In this document: positions 40,601-56,355 of the stretch, piece by piece | Position numbering within the stretch: the stretch's first letter is position 1 | How the letters are laid out: each line of letters starts with the position of its first letter | Assembly: GCF_964204865.1 (NCBI RefSeq) | Contig: NC_135251.1 | Coordinates: forward strand, 20,026,001-20,090,000 | Direction of reading: 5' to 3' | Source of the DNA: Styela clava | Lineage: Eukaryota | DNA: 64,000 nucleotides | Notes under the pieces: generated by a model | Seen by the model: the letters and a program-made list of their open reading frames with translations, nothing else | The model's database searches: none | Told to the model about the DNA's origin: nothing | Position numbers and translations under genes: made by a program

Positions 40601-43600
40601 ATAAAATACCGCCACTTACTTTCCCCCTTCTTCATCTATTTGGAAACTAGCAGCTAATTCTGCTTCGTTACTTGCAATTTGAATACCACCACGCATAGAT
40701 AAATCATCCATAGATTCACCATTGAAGTTTCCGCATAAACCTATAGATACGTAAGTATCATAATATTGTGTCAAAAGCCGTGGTATTATCACGTAATAAT
40801 TTTACGCAACTTGGTCTAGACTAGCTATTGTACAGTTACGACACAAGAAGAAAATGCCATGAACGTGACATACGTAACTTGTAATAAGAGAACGCCTATA
40901 TATATAAATGTAAAAATATTATCTAAAATTTAAAAAATAAGACATCGGGGGCGCTAACCTTCAACTTGTCCTGCGTAAATTTGAGGTAACTGTACAGATA
41001 GGGTCCCATCGTCGATGTGAATACGTAGAGCAAGAGATATTCCGATGTTAATTCCACGCCCGCTTTTTTCCACACGCAACCCTGATCTCAAACGGATAGG
41101 CAAGCTTACAGCCACGCCGTCAAGCTGCAAAAATGATGCAATGACAATAAATAAGAACCTTGACGAGTTAAAAGGCTTAATAAGATATTGTATACGTACA
41201 CCTGATACTGTGTAAATTTATCATGACTTGGGCGGTAGAATTTCGTATATATAATAGGTAATGTATTTTGATCCAAAACCTCCAAGTCAGTTAACACTGT
41301 AACAATTAGCGACTGCATCAACCCTGGTGTAATTTCCAATTATAAAAGCACCCTTTTCTTACGTAAACGTTTCTTTTCCCATCAATTGTGACTGTTTGAT
41401 TATACACATTAACTTCTAGAGTCCCGATACGGACTGCTGTATTAGCTGCTGGAGTCTCTTCATTCGCAAGCTGTGAAAAATTAGAAAAATTCTGATATAT
41501 TTGTCTGGATGGCAATATGATAGATTAGTTCAAACTTTCGGACAAGACAGTCTGGTGATTCTCATATACAACAGCAAAACAGCGTTTACTTGGCATCAAA
41601 GAATTAAATTTATACCTAATTTTGACTGGCATTATAAAACTCTTTTGAGCATTTTAAAATAATGCGTTTTAGAACGTTGAACATATGGCACTGTATATAT
41701 GTTTTAGCCGATATAAAAAAATGAATAATATCTCACTAAAACACTGAAAGGTGTAAGTCCAGCTGTAGGCGAAGGTATCGTTCCAATGAGTTGATATTTA
41801 CACATTCCATAGAAATTATATCTGGCTTTGTCGAATGTGATGAAATGAGAACCTCCAACTACTGCACAAAACGAGGTTGCTGAAACAACAAATGTTCGGT
41901 TATTATATGATTAAAATATTTTGATAGAGAAAATAAAACATCAGTAAGATGACTATTTGAAAGTCCCACATCACAGACTGAACTATCAGATTTGAATATT
42001 AAAAATCAATACACAAAGATATGGTACCAGTAAATAGTACTCTGGTCAAGTACGCGTTCCTTCTTATGACATACGCCCTAAAAATAGCAATTTATAGCTT
42101 GATTTATCGTTTTAAGCATACCTATACCGTAAAATATTACGTTATGCTCACTTTTTGGGGAAAAGAAAATAATTCCCATTCGCATATTCATTTATTTAAC
42201 GAAGGCACAAACTATTTTTTTTTTATGAAATACTCGCTTAATCTTCCAGGCGCCGCTTTATCCGACGTATGGAACAAAATATTTACATATTACGTGAATT
42301 TTGGCACTCGTTTGATAATATTTGCTAAAATATAATCAATTACAGAAACAAATGGAGACTTTTGGATTTAACACACTCCCAGATTATAAAATATCAATCC
42401 AAATTAAGTCTATAATCTGCACGATATGTGACAGAGTGGGCCCAAATGCAAGTTCAAAAACTTTGTTAGGTTTACATTCCTATGCCAGTAATTTTAGGAA
42501 TTGCCAAAAGTGAGTAATATGCGTGTAATCAAGTGGTGGTTAGTTGGTAAACCAAATTTATGTTGTGGCTGAGTGGTTTCTAGACTTCAAGCTTTAATAA
42601 ACCTCATCTTATTATCAATGTGTCATGCTTCATTTAAAAGATGTGCAACTACGCAATTCAAGTAATCTTGTGGCTTTCTCTCAGAGCGTGTCAAAAGGTA
42701 ATTGTGAAATTTCAATCAAAATAGATTTGGCATTACCTTTTGGAACTTCGACTGTGATGCAAATCTGTTCCGACAGAACTCTAAAAATAAAATCCAATTG
42801 TTGAAAACCAAATAGAAACTCGATTGGAGTCAGACTGTAGAATCTATTGATAAGTGAATTTATTTCGAAAGCCATACAAAGAACGCTATAATATGAAGAG
42901 TTTTTGAAAATGAGTAAAATTATGTAATGGACCAATATAAAGTGAATTACATTTTTCGTTGCTAGTATTCAACTTTTTGTCATTGTTTTAAATTATTTTT
43001 TTGATTGAGTGATGCTGTTTTTACAGCATCAGTTCACTGACGAACACAACAAGTATCTCAAAAACATCGCTATATTCAACGATCTACATTTAGAAAAAGA
43101 AACGAGCCAAAATGTAGGAAGATGCTTTAAGTAAATAGCAATTTATATGGAAATATTATAATTGATAATAGCACAAAGTGAATATTAAATGCAAACCCAT
43201 TTGAACTCCTTCCTGTCACACAGATGAGATTCGAACCGTCTTGTGCTGGTTCGGGTGTCCAAGTAATCTCGGTATGATAGACTTCACCGACTTTCAAAAT
43301 TGGCGATTTTCTTACTCCAATCGGAGCGATTAAAATGAAGTCGTCAATGCTGGGAAGGAATTAAACAGTAAAGAATGTTAAACGCCCAATTAGTGACCTC
43401 TTGGCGACACATTACCACCAAACAAATGTACGATTAGCTGGACTTCTTTATAAACAATTTATAGATAATCGGAGATTGGTATGACCAATTAGTGGTCACA
43501 TTACGAAGGCAATGTTGAAATGATGTGCAGAACACAATGAATTAATTGTATTTAAAATAAATAAACGGTATCTAATGATTCGGATGAGTCAGATAAACCC

Positions 43601-55600: not shown

Positions 55601-56355
55601 GTGTTGGTATTGGTGAAACACGCAAAAATGGAACAAACACTTTTGTTTTACCAAAATGCAAGTATTTTTCATCACTTTTCATTGTAAGCTATCAGAAACG
55701 CTTACTGACATCGAACGTGTATTACTTTGCAAATCTAATATTCAATATATCATATTGATTTTGAATTAACAAATGTAAAATAAATAAACGTGACGGCATA
55801 ATTTCTGTTCCCTATTAAACGTGCACGACTTTAATACATACTCTGGTCTAGGCGAAATCATTAACAATTTGAGTTCAATATTTTTATGTAGTAGAAGCTA
55901 CCATAACATTTAATTTTAACGTTCTCCTGGACTGAAATATCCTTACCAACGCATCCTTTTCAAGTTGAGCGATAGTTGGTTTATCGCTGGTACAAAAAGT
56001 CAAGTTATCGTTAAAATAAACACTTGATTTGCGGAATTGTTGATGATTTGTTATATCAACAACTCATTCATTTGTAATTTGCCTGGTGATATTTTAGGAA
56101 AAGTATGATAGGCGGCACTTTTACGCGCCAAAAGCTTTATAAAAAACTTTGCCGTGTGCCAATTTGGATCGTATTATAGAAACTCACCTCTCTATATGAT
56201 AATGAAAAACTATCGCTTGGTTTCCACGATATCGATCCTCCACGAAAATGAGTTGCTTGAACATTGCCGGCCCCTTCGCCAATTCCAGCGACGATAATAT
56301 AAATAACGATACCGACCACGACCGGTCCCATAACAGTGGTTTTACCGTACGACAT
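7112..56355 (-). CDS. Giant secreted VWD-C8-TIL repeat protein (FCGBP/zonadhesin/alpha-tectorin-like superfamily) with atypical N- and C-termini; ~83 coding exons, roughly 4,000 aa
   Basis: Exon chain traced from ATG at 56355 to TAA at 7112 with GT-AG introns and compatible phases; no in-frame stop found in the exons I translated. Nine repeats of C-x-x-x-x-(DP)H-(Y/F)-x-TFDG...GLCG(D/N)F(N/D)...CxxDxC...TIL. Confidence 0.9.
8468..8584 (-). CDS. EGF-like domain exon (phase 1-1) of the giant gene
   Basis: [38 protein letters not shown], a six-Cys NGGC..CSC..GY.L..D.KTC pattern. Confidence 0.9.
8839..11771 (-). CDS. VWD-C8-TIL-TILa assembly 9 (7 exons)
   Basis: [18 protein letters not shown]...[14 protein letters not shown]...YCLYEMC...[10 protein letters not shown]. 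Confidence 0.88.
10233..10512. mobile_element. Possible decayed hAT-type MITE
   Basis: GC-rich end GGCGGGCCGGATTGTGGACCGCCTATTGCACACCCCT followed by a CTCTAGAG-like site resembles hAT/Charlie termini; the partner terminus is poorly preserved. Confidence 0.3.
10558..10705. repeat. Degenerate ~56-bp tandem repeat, about 2.5 copies, intronic
   Basis: AATCATACACA...AGTGTTTAAT recurs three times. Confidence 0.7.
12034..15949 (-). CDS. VWD-C8-TIL-TILa assembly 8 (7 exons)
   Basis: [15 protein letters not shown]...[15 protein letters not shown]...[10 protein letters not shown]...[14 protein letters not shown]...[10 protein letters not shown]. Confidence 0.88.
16329..19008 (-). CDS. VWD-C8-TIL-TILa assembly 7 (8 exons)
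   Basis: [18 protein letters not shown]...[14 protein letters not shown]...ANCMLDMC...NWREEANL. Confidence 0.9.
18545..18616 (-). repeat. Possible decayed tRNA-derived SINE head
   Basis: B-box GGTTCGATCC on the minus strand (18558-18567) at tRNA-like spacing; no intact cloverleaf. Confidence 0.3.
19275..21947 (-). CDS. VWD-C8-TIL-TILa assembly 6 (8 exons)
   Basis: [18 protein letters not shown]...[14 protein letters not shown]...[22 protein letters not shown]. Confidence 0.9.
19924..19953. repeat. (TA)n microsatellite
   Basis: Run of TA dinucleotides ending in TACATACAT. Confidence 0.85.
22019..25156 (-). CDS. VWD-C8-TIL-TILa assembly 5 (8 exons)
   Basis: [18 protein letters not shown]...[14 protein letters not shown]...[22 protein letters not shown]. 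Confidence 0.9.
23795..24134. repeat. 168-bp direct tandem duplication overlapping an exon 3' end and its splice donor
   Basis: Two near-identical copies starting AAATCTGGCATAACATTGGA at 23795 and 23963; AAAT microhomology at the junctions. Confidence 0.9.
25256..28319 (-). CDS. VWD-C8-TIL-TILa assembly 4 (8 exons), closest paralogue of assembly 3
   Basis: [18 protein letters not shown]...[14 protein letters not shown]...[12 protein letters not shown]. Confidence 0.9.
29555..32884 (-). CDS. VWD-C8-TIL-TILa assembly 3 (8 exons)
   Basis: [18 protein letters not shown]...[14 protein letters not shown]...[12 protein letters not shown]. Confidence 0.9.
33017..36260 (-). CDS. VWD-C8-TIL-TILa assembly 2 (8 exons)
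   Basis: [18 protein letters not shown]...[14 protein letters not shown]...[17 protein letters not shown]. Confidence 0.9.
36741..41879 (-). CDS. VWD-C8-TIL-TILa assembly 1 (9 exons)
   Basis: [14 protein letters not shown]...[10 protein letters not shown]...[23 protein letters not shown]...[10 protein letters not shown]...GCVCNKGY. Confidence 0.88.
39962..40303. mobile_element. Non-autonomous Tc1/mariner (pogo/Tigger-like) MITE, 342 bp, intronic
   Basis: Left end CAGGTAGTCCTCGACTTACGAC versus reverse complement of right end CAGGGAGTCCTCGGGTTACGAC (3 mismatches in 22). TA on both sides (39960-39961, 40304-40305). No ORF. Confidence 0.85.
42737..45173 (-). CDS. Exons 6-8 of the giant gene (45173-45038, 43349-43197, 42780-42737): Ig/cadherin-like beta-sandwich module
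   Basis: ...[13 protein letters not shown]...IAPIGVRKS...[42 protein letters not shown] motif and alternating beta-strand pattern; in frame with both flanking exons. Confidence 0.75.
46528..52292 (-). CDS. Exons 2-5 of the giant gene (52292-52154, 49797-49557, 47157-47019, 46696-46528): Sib/'integrin beta-like' bacterial-type N-terminal domain
   Basis: [84 protein letters not shown]. Phases 0-1-2-0-1 are consistent. The family assignment is from motif recall, not a search. Confidence 0.8.
56188..56355 (-). CDS. First coding exon of the giant gene: signal peptide and start of the mature N-terminal domain
   Basis: [56 protein letters not shown] followed by a gtgagt donor; hydrophobic core and a VQA cleavage-like site. 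Confidence 0.85.

What the first reader, a model, noticed from the sequence alone, without database searches (positions are those of the whole stretch)
42737..56355. N-terminal domain of bacterial surface-protein type, split over 8 exons with the gene's longest introns
Seen: the mature N-terminus begins [10 protein letters not shown] directly after the signal peptide, followed by CCW, NSSP, DSDGD (Ca-binding-like) and WTP motifs. From recall, this motif series occurs in Dictyostelium Sib adhesion proteins, in patchily distributed invertebrate 'integrin beta-like' proteins and in secreted bacterial proteins, but not in vertebrate VWD proteins. Inference: an old horizontally acquired or patchily retained adhesin-like module recruited as the ligand-binding tip. 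A His at mature position 2 plus a vicinal CC could form a metal or redox site. Introns here reach 2-4 kb, against mostly under 1 kb in the repeats.
Basis: partly seen in the sequence, partly recalled or inferred. Interest (0 to 1): 0.7.

Follow-up and report, generated by a model that had tools for sequence, protein, structure and literature searches.

The report
Bacteria-shared head on sea-squirt mucus protein
This spliced animal gene (likely from a sea squirt) encodes a giant mucus-type protein, predicted to be secreted, whose front end is a module also found in bacterial surface proteins and in sponges, corals, molluscs, lampreys, fish and frogs, and that module likely works as a sugar-gripping tip.

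Summary
Confirmed: eight minus-strand exons encode a signal peptide plus a 360-residue module with all the quoted motifs; spliced contigs support all seven introns. The module heads a roughly 4,000-residue FCGBP-like protein (nine VWD units, EGF, terminal WxxW, no membrane anchor). Bacterial homology is real: a bacteria-only profile scores it at 111.7 bits end to end, and those proteins carry Pfam SIBA-E_N, the Dictyostelium Sib N-terminal family. No Sib sequence was compared directly. The 'patchy invertebrate, not in vertebrate VWD proteins' claim fails. The module occurs from sponges to frogs, heads a lamprey VWD protein, and has at least six copies in this genome. Eukaryotic rows form one group against bacteria and two intron positions are shared with corals, so recent transfer is unlikely; the ancient direction is open. 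Models of two homologues show beta-sandwich domains. His2 is kept in 60 of 62 rows and the two cysteines are kept or lost together, favouring a vicinal disulfide in a glycan-binding tip over a metal site (inferred, untested). The long introns are real but ordinary. Two look-ups of this scan's notes showed no earlier report of this module.

The parts
56188..56355 (-). Exon 1: start codon, signal peptide (residues 1-34; second in-frame Met at residue 9), mature N-terminus Thr35-His36 at 56253
   Evidence: contigs reach 56346-56442
52154..52292 (-). Exon 2: domain 1, Trp65-Arg66, Cys72, Cys91, Cys95
49557..49797 (-). Exon 3: second half of domain 1 (SIBA-E_N type) with Cys139-Cys140-Trp141 at 49690, the RSDTG segment seen only in eukaryotic rows, and NSSP
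   Evidence: (SIBA-E_N 12.3 bits, E 0.18 for this exon alone)
47019..47157 (-). Exon 4: domain 2 (Ig/cadherin-like) with DSDGD at 47114, predicted calcium site
46528..46696 (-). Exon 5: rest of domain 2 with conserved Glu253-Asp254
45038..45173 (-). Exon 6: start of domain 3 (Ig-like)
43197..43349 (-). Exon 7: domain 3 with WTP
   Evidence: (Ig_SIBA-E_3rd 14.4 bits, E 0.05)
42737..42780 (-). Exon 8: last strand of domain 3
8839..41879 (-). Nine VWD-C8-TIL(-TILa) units of the same gene, starting at 41879, 36260, 32884, 28319, 25156, 21947, 19008, 15949 and 11771; six carry Thr-Asp-Pro-His, three do not
   Evidence: (approximate model, some exons missed); one 11,770-base contig has pieces at 56398, 39178 and 17357
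7112..8584 (-). C-terminal exons: EGF-like domain, a 46-codon exon without a Pfam hit, one Mucin2_WxxW domain, stop codon ending at 7112; no transmembrane segment

Best explanation
The eight exons encode a signal peptide and a module, homologous over its whole length to the N-terminus of bacterial surface proteins, that heads a nine-VWD FCGBP-like protein; the module is predicted to fold into three beta-sandwich domains and likely binds glycans at its tip. Steps: (1) shown: spliced gene, domain order, no membrane anchor, homology to bacterial and animal proteins. (2) Predicted: signal peptidase cuts after Ala34, so His36 is mature residue 2 next to a free amine. (3) Inferred from predicted strand order in two homologues: His2/Arg4, the Trp-Arg loop, the Asp-Trp turn and Cys-Cys-Trp all lie at the outer end of domain 1. 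(4) Inferred: the two adjacent cysteines bond to each other and, with the Trp and His, line a shallow pocket for a sugar ring. (5) Inferred: Asn171, Asp198/200/202 and Glu253/Asp254 bind calcium at the domain 1-2 joint, as in cadherin-like domains, and stiffen the stalk. (6) Inferred: the protein is secreted into mucus, where the head cross-links glycoproteins or catches microbes and food particles while the VWD chain acts as scaffold. The module was already in early animals and has been shuffled onto ZP, Sushi, SRCR, EGF, adhesion-GPCR, NIDO and VWD proteins.
For: Gene structure. Homology: a profile built from 10 of 13 bacterial homologues scores the spliced module 111.7 bits over profile positions 1-329; of 1000 shuffles 24 were reported, best 3.7. 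Profile-profile comparison of 15 eukaryote-type and 13 bacterial proteins: probability 99.95, E 1.5e-37, 331 columns. Position: 13 of 16 hits carry PF24907 and 9 of those 13 a T9SS sorting domain; in the 5 bacterial proteins scanned, the Pfam domain starts at residues 13-53. Fold: paralogue P0021, mean pLDDT 85.5, all-beta module. Domain 3 matches Ig and Siglec-like domains (Z 8.8, rmsd 2.5, 97 residues with 5iuc, tied with unrelated Ig domains); domains 2-3 span tandem cadherin-like chains (4m03 Z 8.8 but rmsd 17.5). Tip: His in 60 of 62 rows with a residue. Cysteine pair: both in 48, neither in 15, one in 2 of 65 rows; in 8 of 11 bacterial rows with the pair they are the only cysteines in the first 330 residues, so no other partner exists. 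Replacements are mostly small residues (Gly, Ala, Ser, Asn). Vicinal disulfides can pack on the plain face of a bound sugar ring (PMC12102755, passages read). Acidic motif: N171, D198, D200, D202, D254 in 52 of 52 eukaryotic rows and 11-13 of 14 bacterial rows. Precedent: FCGBP has an N-terminal domain shared with secreted bacterial SprB/PKD proteins (PMC4948705, passages read).
Against: No ligand has been shown for any member in what I could read. Domain 1 has no clear solved relative (best Z 6.5, rmsd 3.4, 99 residues, generic Ig/FN3 folds; no Foldseek match at E<=0.001), so the fold gives no function. The models are of homologues (P0021, which lacks the CC, and Lingula P0009), not of the window's protein, and gave no coordinates, so the clustering at the tip rests on strand order. 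About a quarter of rows, including paralogues L004 and L005, lack the cysteine pair, so it is not essential to the family. Row counts include near-duplicates and are not independent events. Tissue of expression is unknown.
Confidence: 0.5

Rival explanations
1. The tip is a transition-metal or redox site: the free amine, the following amide and His2 bind copper or zinc, with the two cysteines as extra ligands or a redox switch.
For: His at mature position 2 in 60 of 62 rows from bacteria to frogs; Asp or Asn at position 114 in most rows. That Xaa-His termini bind copper is recalled, not tested. A metal could also serve glycan binding, so this is not fully exclusive of the best explanation.
Against: His stays in 13 of 14 rows that lost both cysteines, and the replacements are mostly small residues rather than His or Cys. 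Thiolate ligands are uncommon in the oxidising secretory path (general knowledge). A histidine brace needs His at position 1 (recalled).
Confidence: 0.2
2. The head is a protein-protein adhesion or self-assembly module, working like a calcium-stiffened cadherin tip that links copies of the protein into a mucus net.
For: Cadherin-like acidic motifs; cadherin and SraP cadherin-like chains among the fold matches for domains 2-3; some fish proteins carry tandem copies of the module.
Against: The same N-terminal residues are kept on many unrelated scaffolds in bacteria and animals, which fits a common small ligand better than a self-surface. The two-domain cadherin matches have rmsd 17-23.
Confidence: 0.2
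3. The module is only a structural cap or secretion aid with no ligand.
For: Generic Ig-type folds. Lang et al. suggested that the N-terminal position of the analogous FCGBP domain may matter for transport out of the cell (PMC4948705, passage read).
Against: Near-invariant His and Arg at the very terminus and a paired Cys-Cys are hard to explain by folding alone.
Confidence: 0.08
4. On origin: the module came recently from a bacterium into the tunicate line.
For: Full-length bacterial homology; the window row is not placed in any well-supported eukaryotic subgroup.
Against: Eukaryote-type rows are one side of a branch with SH-aLRT 100 (52 against 12 rows; 29 against 9; quick trees, many rows unnamed). 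The best pairwise bacterial score is 75 bits against 190-240 bits for animal proteins. The window shares the RSDTG segment (biased by the search profile) and extra cysteines absent from all 14 bacterial rows. Two intron positions recur in coral exon fragments.
Confidence: 0.02

Closest known systems
Pfam SIBA-E_N (PF24907) with Ig_SIBA-E_2nd (PF24908) and Ig_SIBA-E_3rd (PF24910): N-terminal domains of Dictyostelium SibA-E
   Same: Same N-terminal domain followed by Ig-like domains. 4 of 46 longer homologues pass the Pfam cut-off (29-39 bits against 28.1); 5 of 5 bacterial homologues scanned score 49-70 bits; window exons 3 and 7 give weak hits in the right order.
   Different: SibA is a type I membrane receptor with a vWA domain, bacterial-like repeats and NPxY motifs that bind talin (PMC9197732, PMC2651865, passages read). 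The window protein has no membrane anchor and continues into VWD units. No Sib sequence was available for direct comparison.
FCGBP (IgGFc-binding protein)
   Same: Long chain of VWD-C8-TIL units, no PTS region, Asp-Pro-His motifs in most units, and an N-terminal domain shared with secreted bacterial proteins (PMC4948705, PMC10880436, passages read).
   Different: The head is the Sib-type module, not FCGBP_N; nine units rather than 13; the motif is TDPH rather than GDPH; the chain ends in EGF and one WxxW domain.
Lamprey 'IgGFc-binding protein-like' (P0090, XP_061434353.1; cluster of 7 from four lamprey species)
   Same: Same module at the N-terminus followed by VWD-C8-TIL units.
   Different: Three VWD units, then ZP and a hydrophobic C-terminal segment. 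Orthology is not shown: the two rows are unresolved in both quick trees.
Bacterial surface proteins with PF24907, mostly T9SS cargo with SprB, HYR or PKD-type stalks (named: Hyunsoonleella P0196, Fibrella P0194, Acidobacteriota P0201)
   Same: Collinear three-domain module right after the signal peptide, with His2, CC, N-x-x-P and the DxDGD-type motif.
   Different: Arg rather than Trp after CC, no RSDTG segment, few other cysteines. Rare: over the cut-off in 3 of 401 genomes of the phylum of G001 (one being the centre itself) and 2 of 301 of the phylum of G002.
NCBI 'integrin beta-like protein A/C' of corals and mussels, and ZP-domain proteins of fish, frogs and tunicates
   Same: Same module; window model aligns over residues 32-395 with many of them.
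   Different: Different C-terminal parts: ZP in 19 of 46 scanned, Sushi 4, SRCR 3, adhesion GPCR 1, NIDO 1, VWD 1. The fish and frog group is long-branched and often has an insertion before or a loss of domain 3.

Membership tests
Pfam SIBA-E_N (PF24907) | Score of at least 28.1 bits against the profile | tested here: inconclusive
   Only single exons could be scanned: exon 3 gives 12.3 bits on profile positions 59-117. Homologues that align with the window end to end pass in 4 of 46 cases, and the window scores 111.7 bits against a profile of bacterial PF24907 proteins.
Sib adhesion receptors (SibA-E) | Single transmembrane segment and cytosolic NPxY tail | tested here: not met
   No 19-residue window above 1.35 after residue 40 of the approximate 3,899-residue model; the chain ends with the WxxW domain.
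Sib adhesion receptors (SibA-E) | Extracellular vWA domain and four bacterial-like repeats | tested here: inconclusive
   None seen in the exons scanned and the model runs from the module straight into VWD units, but most exons were not scanned against Pfam.
FCGBP | Many tandem VWD-C8-TIL units without PTS regions | tested here: met
   Nine units; highest Ser+Thr+Pro fraction 0.32 in any 100 residues.
FCGBP | N-terminal FCGBP_N domain | tested here: not met
   The whole N-terminus up to the first VWD is filled by the Sib-type module; no FCGBP-type family was listed for 7 of the 8 N-terminal exons scanned or for 46 full-length homologues.
FCGBP | Self-cleaving GDPH motif in most VWD domains | tested here: inconclusive
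   Six of nine units have TDPH. Asp and His are required for cleavage (PMC10880436, passage read); whether Thr is tolerated in place of Gly was not established.
Gel-forming mucins | PTS region | tested here: not met
Cadherin-like calcium-binding domains | Beta-sandwich fold with acidic interdomain calcium ligands | tested here: inconclusive
   Motif residues conserved; cadherin-type chains among fold matches, tied with other Ig folds; calcium binding not testable here.
Histidine-brace copper proteins | His at mature position 1 (recalled definition) | tested here: not met
   A Ser, Thr, Ala or Asp separates the A/G/S cleavage residue from His in nearly all rows; the cleavage site is inferred from the pattern, not measured.
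Lectins | Specific glycan binding | not testable with these tools
   Only indirect support.

The most novel reading that the evidence does not exclude
The Sib N-terminal domain is an unrecognised lectin family shared by bacteria, amoebae and aquatic animals. It grips its ligand with a free N-terminal amine, His2 and a vicinal disulfide, and serves as an interchangeable head on mucus proteins, ZP proteins and adhesion GPCRs. With FCGBP_N it would be a second case of a bacterial adhesin-type domain capping a VWD chain, and it would point to the ligand-binding end of the Dictyostelium Sib receptors.
Probability: 0.35. Interest if true: 0.72.

Novelty: new variant of a known kind. Interest (0 to 1): 0.45.

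Why it matters
The domain is already in Pfam and the gene is one of many animal carriers, so this locus is not unique. What the work adds is the breadth of the family (sponge to frog, plus a small share of bacteria), a conserved His2 and cysteine-pair signature that gives a direct test of function, and an FCGBP-like protein with a different bacteria-shared head. If the tip binds glycans, it defines a new lectin family at mucous surfaces of aquatic animals and offers a candidate ligand site for the Sib adhesion receptors. I found no paper describing the animal module (listings only), but the library lacks most subscription journals.

Tried and rejected
Single-exon searches were too weak: no hit in the word-indexed protein search, PDB sequences, plasmids, GTDB contigs with the exon-3 pattern, or the own genome with PF24907 (controls also blank). 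A profile of the module found no PDB sequence below E 0.64. Domain 1 has no clear fold match; the top Foldseek rows (nicotinic and GLIC receptors, E about 0.04) are not significant. The ESM Atlas did not hold the window exon or P0021; stand-ins gave rotifer and chordate clusters at 0.83-0.85, leads only, and Bacteroidota clusters at 0.90-0.93; no amoebozoan cluster was listed. No Dictyostelium Sib sequence could be obtained, so the amoebozoan link rests on Pfam names. The two original Sib papers are not held. Careful trees did not finish; only quick trees are quoted, with no root and no one-clade test. No amniote, arthropod or nematode appeared among the 22 species-labelled proteins of 30 looked up (of 150 listed, 270 hits), which is no test of absence. 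No run was on record as RNA. Long introns as a special property of the module: rejected, because first introns are commonly the longest (general knowledge), four of the seven are under 1.7 kb, and paralogues L003 and L004 have module introns of a few hundred bases. Intron 1 matched only itself in the genome (common words are skipped). An open frame at 53803-53715 is not an exon of this transcript: contigs join across it. Supplementary files were not read; those of PMC4948705 may list tunicate VWD proteins like this one.
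Full report
What is there. The finding lies on the minus strand. Six-frame translation places [10 protein letters not shown] at 56253, CCW at 49690, NSSP at 49594, DSDGD at 47114 and WTP at 43261. Eight exons with AG/GT ends join into one open frame of 396 codons that continues into a VWD exon at 41879. Contigs of four public runs were laid on 39000-57800: all seven introns, and the one to the VWD exon, appear as joints in three runs, and the first three in all four (two studies; RNA status is the tool's guess). 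One 11,770-base contig has pieces at the 5' end and at 17357, so the module and the repeats are one transcript.

The whole gene. An approximate model has 81 exons and 3,899 residues; it recovers 6,473 of 6,992 exon bases between two fixed points, so the true length is about 4,000-4,100. The order is signal peptide, the module, nine VWD-C8-TIL units, EGF, a short exon without a Pfam hit, one Mucin2_WxxW domain, and a stop at 7112. There is no hydrophobic segment after the signal peptide and no PTS region. Six of nine VWD units carry TDPH. The organism is likely an ascidian, since the best-scoring full-module homologue without repeats is labelled Styela clava by NCBI.

Introns. The seven module introns have a median of 1688 bases against 254 for 73 downstream introns. 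The difference is real but carried largely by the first three introns, and paralogues L003 and L004 have short introns in the module. I treat it as the common first-intron effect (general knowledge).

Animal relatives. Two searches of the own genome give six loci: the window, C2:12.20 Mb, C8:11.48, C8:19.22, C8:19.25 and C8:19.30 Mb (lower bound). The C2:12.20 locus also continues into VWD units; three C8 loci match ZP-bearing proteins along their length. A 47-column profile of the exon-3 segment found 270 of 1.84 billion representatives at E<=0.001, 150 listed. The spliced window model aligns with many over residues 32-395 at up to 240 bits, which also checks the exon model. Of 46 longer hits scanned, 19 carry ZP, 4 Sushi, 3 SRCR, 1 an adhesion GPCR, 1 NIDO and 1 VWD. 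Of 30 proteins looked up, 23 were named and 22 showed a species, all animals: sponge, four corals, brachiopod, chiton, bivalves, tunicate, lamprey, five teleosts, three frogs; a sea cucumber came. The lamprey protein P0090 has the module, three VWD-C8-TIL units and ZP.

Bacterial relatives and Sib. A profile of 15 eukaryote-type modules retrieved P0191, with SprB repeats and a T9SS tail, at E 5e-24. Its N-terminal region found 16 proteins, 13 with PF24907 and 9 of those with a T9SS sorting domain; three are named (Fibrella, Hyunsoonleella, Acidobacteriota), the rest are taken as bacterial from their domains. A profile from 10 of these 13 scores the window module 111.7 bits end to end, against at most 3.7 for 1000 shuffles. 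Profile-profile comparison gives E 1.5e-37 over 331 columns. The family is rare in bacteria: over the cut-off in 3 of 401 and 2 of 301 genomes of two phyla; three loci from the second phylum again show His2 with CC or its paired loss. The link to Dictyostelium rests on Pfam: SIBA-E_N passes its cut-off in 4 of 46 homologues and 5 of 5 bacterial proteins, with weaker hits of the second and third Ig models. I could not obtain a Sib sequence. SibA is described as a membrane receptor with vWA, bacterial-like repeats and talin-binding NPxY motifs (PMC9197732, PMC12686525, PMC2651865; passages read); the window protein shares only the N-terminal module.

Origin. In quick trees the eukaryote-type rows are one side of a branch with SH-aLRT 100 (52 against 12 rows; 29 against 9). 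Rows were limited to modules covering at least 230 profile columns, many are unnamed, and there is no root. All 52 eukaryotic rows have Arg164 and Asp166, which are gaps in all 14 bacterial rows (biased, since the search profile held this segment), and extra cysteines absent from bacteria. Exon fragments in coral clusters break just before the x-x-C-C-W segment, as in paralogues L002-L005, and just after the D-E that ends window exon 4 (3 of 7 fragments examined were informative). The module was therefore probably intron-bearing in the common ancestor of corals and chordates. Recent transfer is unlikely. Ancient transfer in either direction and vertical descent with losses all remain open.

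Fold. The paralogue P0021 folded from 28 sequences at mean pLDDT 85.5 into an all-beta module followed by a short small domain and a ZP-N domain. Domain 3 (284-391) matches Ig, Siglec-like, PKD and cadherin domains at Z 7.5-8.8 with no clear winner; domains 2-3 span tandem cadherin-like chains with poor rmsd. Domain 1, modelled in the Lingula protein P0009 (pLDDT 78.2), matches only generic Ig/FN3 folds, best Z 6.5, with no Foldseek hit at E<=0.001. In that model His22 precedes the first strand, Arg53 ends the second, Trp110 starts the long strand 110-121, and Cys-Cys-Trp follows strand 126-133. With Ig-type connectivity these four points lie at the same end, away from domain 2. This is inferred from strand order; no coordinates were available.

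The conserved tip. In a 66-row alignment His2 is present in 60 of 62 rows with a residue, after an A/G/S and one more residue. The cysteine pair is complete in 48, absent in 15 and half present in 2 of 65 rows, and His stays in 13 of 14 rows without the pair. In 8 of 11 bacterial rows with the pair there is no other cysteine in the first 330 residues. Other cysteines co-vary as ordinary pairs (91-95, 215-219, 374-389). This pattern fits a bond between the two neighbours. Such vicinal disulfides can pack against a sugar ring, stabilise structure or act as switches (PMC12102755, passages read). Together with the adjacent Trp, the Arg residues and the tip position on unrelated stalks in bacteria and animals, glycan binding is my best reading (0.5). 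A metal site at the amine and His2 (0.2) and protein-protein adhesion (0.2) remain possible. The acidic residues N171, D198, D200, D202, E253 and D254 are conserved in both groups and likely bind calcium at the domain 1-2 joint.

Comparison with what is known. The protein is built like FCGBP, whose own N-terminal domain is shared with secreted bacterial proteins bearing SprB and PKD domains (PMC4948705, passages read), but it carries a different head and so is not a member by that feature. It is not a Sib receptor and not a gel-forming mucin. The domain is in Pfam and NCBI names some animal carriers 'integrin beta-like protein A/C'. Searches for that name, for the Pfam identifiers and for the motifs listed no paper about the animal module (listings only, not read). 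Two look-ups in this scan's notes showed no earlier report of it.

Verdict. Observation confirmed, interpretation partly supported. This is a new architectural variant of known parts and one of many animal carriers of an uncharacterised domain. Interest 0.45; the boldest reading, a new lectin family spanning bacteria, amoebae and aquatic animals, has probability about 0.35.

Noticed in passing
G000:C2:12197000-12216800 (L022, L023): A second gene in this genome has the same module followed by VWD-C8-TIL units, and shares the phase-1 intron at the start of window exon 3.
   Followed up: partly
G000:C8:11.48, 19.22, 19.25 and 19.30 Mb (L003-L005, L024-L027): Paralogues, three of which match ZP-bearing proteins; L004 and L005 are neighbours that have lost the cysteine pair but keep His2.
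   Followed up: partly
window 21850-36260, 18911-19008: Six VWD units carry TDPH instead of the GDPH self-cleavage motif; cleavage untested.
   Followed up: partly
window 3501-6570, plus strand: A spliced gene converges on this one; its last exon reaches 6570 and the 3' end of the minus-strand transcript reaches 6551, so the ends touch or overlap. Not identified.
   Followed up: no
window 57730-62656, minus strand: Exon-like open frames of a probable upstream gene; five pieces gave no Pfam hit at E<=0.1.
   Followed up: partly
window 63503-63918, plus strand: Start of a gene whose second exon reads like a mitochondrial carrier repeat (resemblance recalled, not tested).
   Followed up: no
window 53715-53803 and 55947-55986, minus strand: Two short open frames with good-looking splice sites inside intron 1; no contig covers them and transcripts join across.
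   Followed up: partly
window 39960-40310: A high-copy interspersed repeat inside the intron between 40620 and 39334, covered by many unrelated contigs.
   Followed up: no
window 59870-60810: Degenerate tandem copies of a unit of roughly 140-150 bases, seen by eye; no repeat finder was run.
   Followed up: no
proteins P0004, P0005, P0010, P0113, P0088, P0111: The module also occurs in several copies per chain (bivalve P0004; fish P0005, P0010, P0113), on an adhesion GPCR of a mussel, and on a NIDO-AMOP protein of a sponge. Internal copies cannot have a free N-terminus.
   Followed up: no
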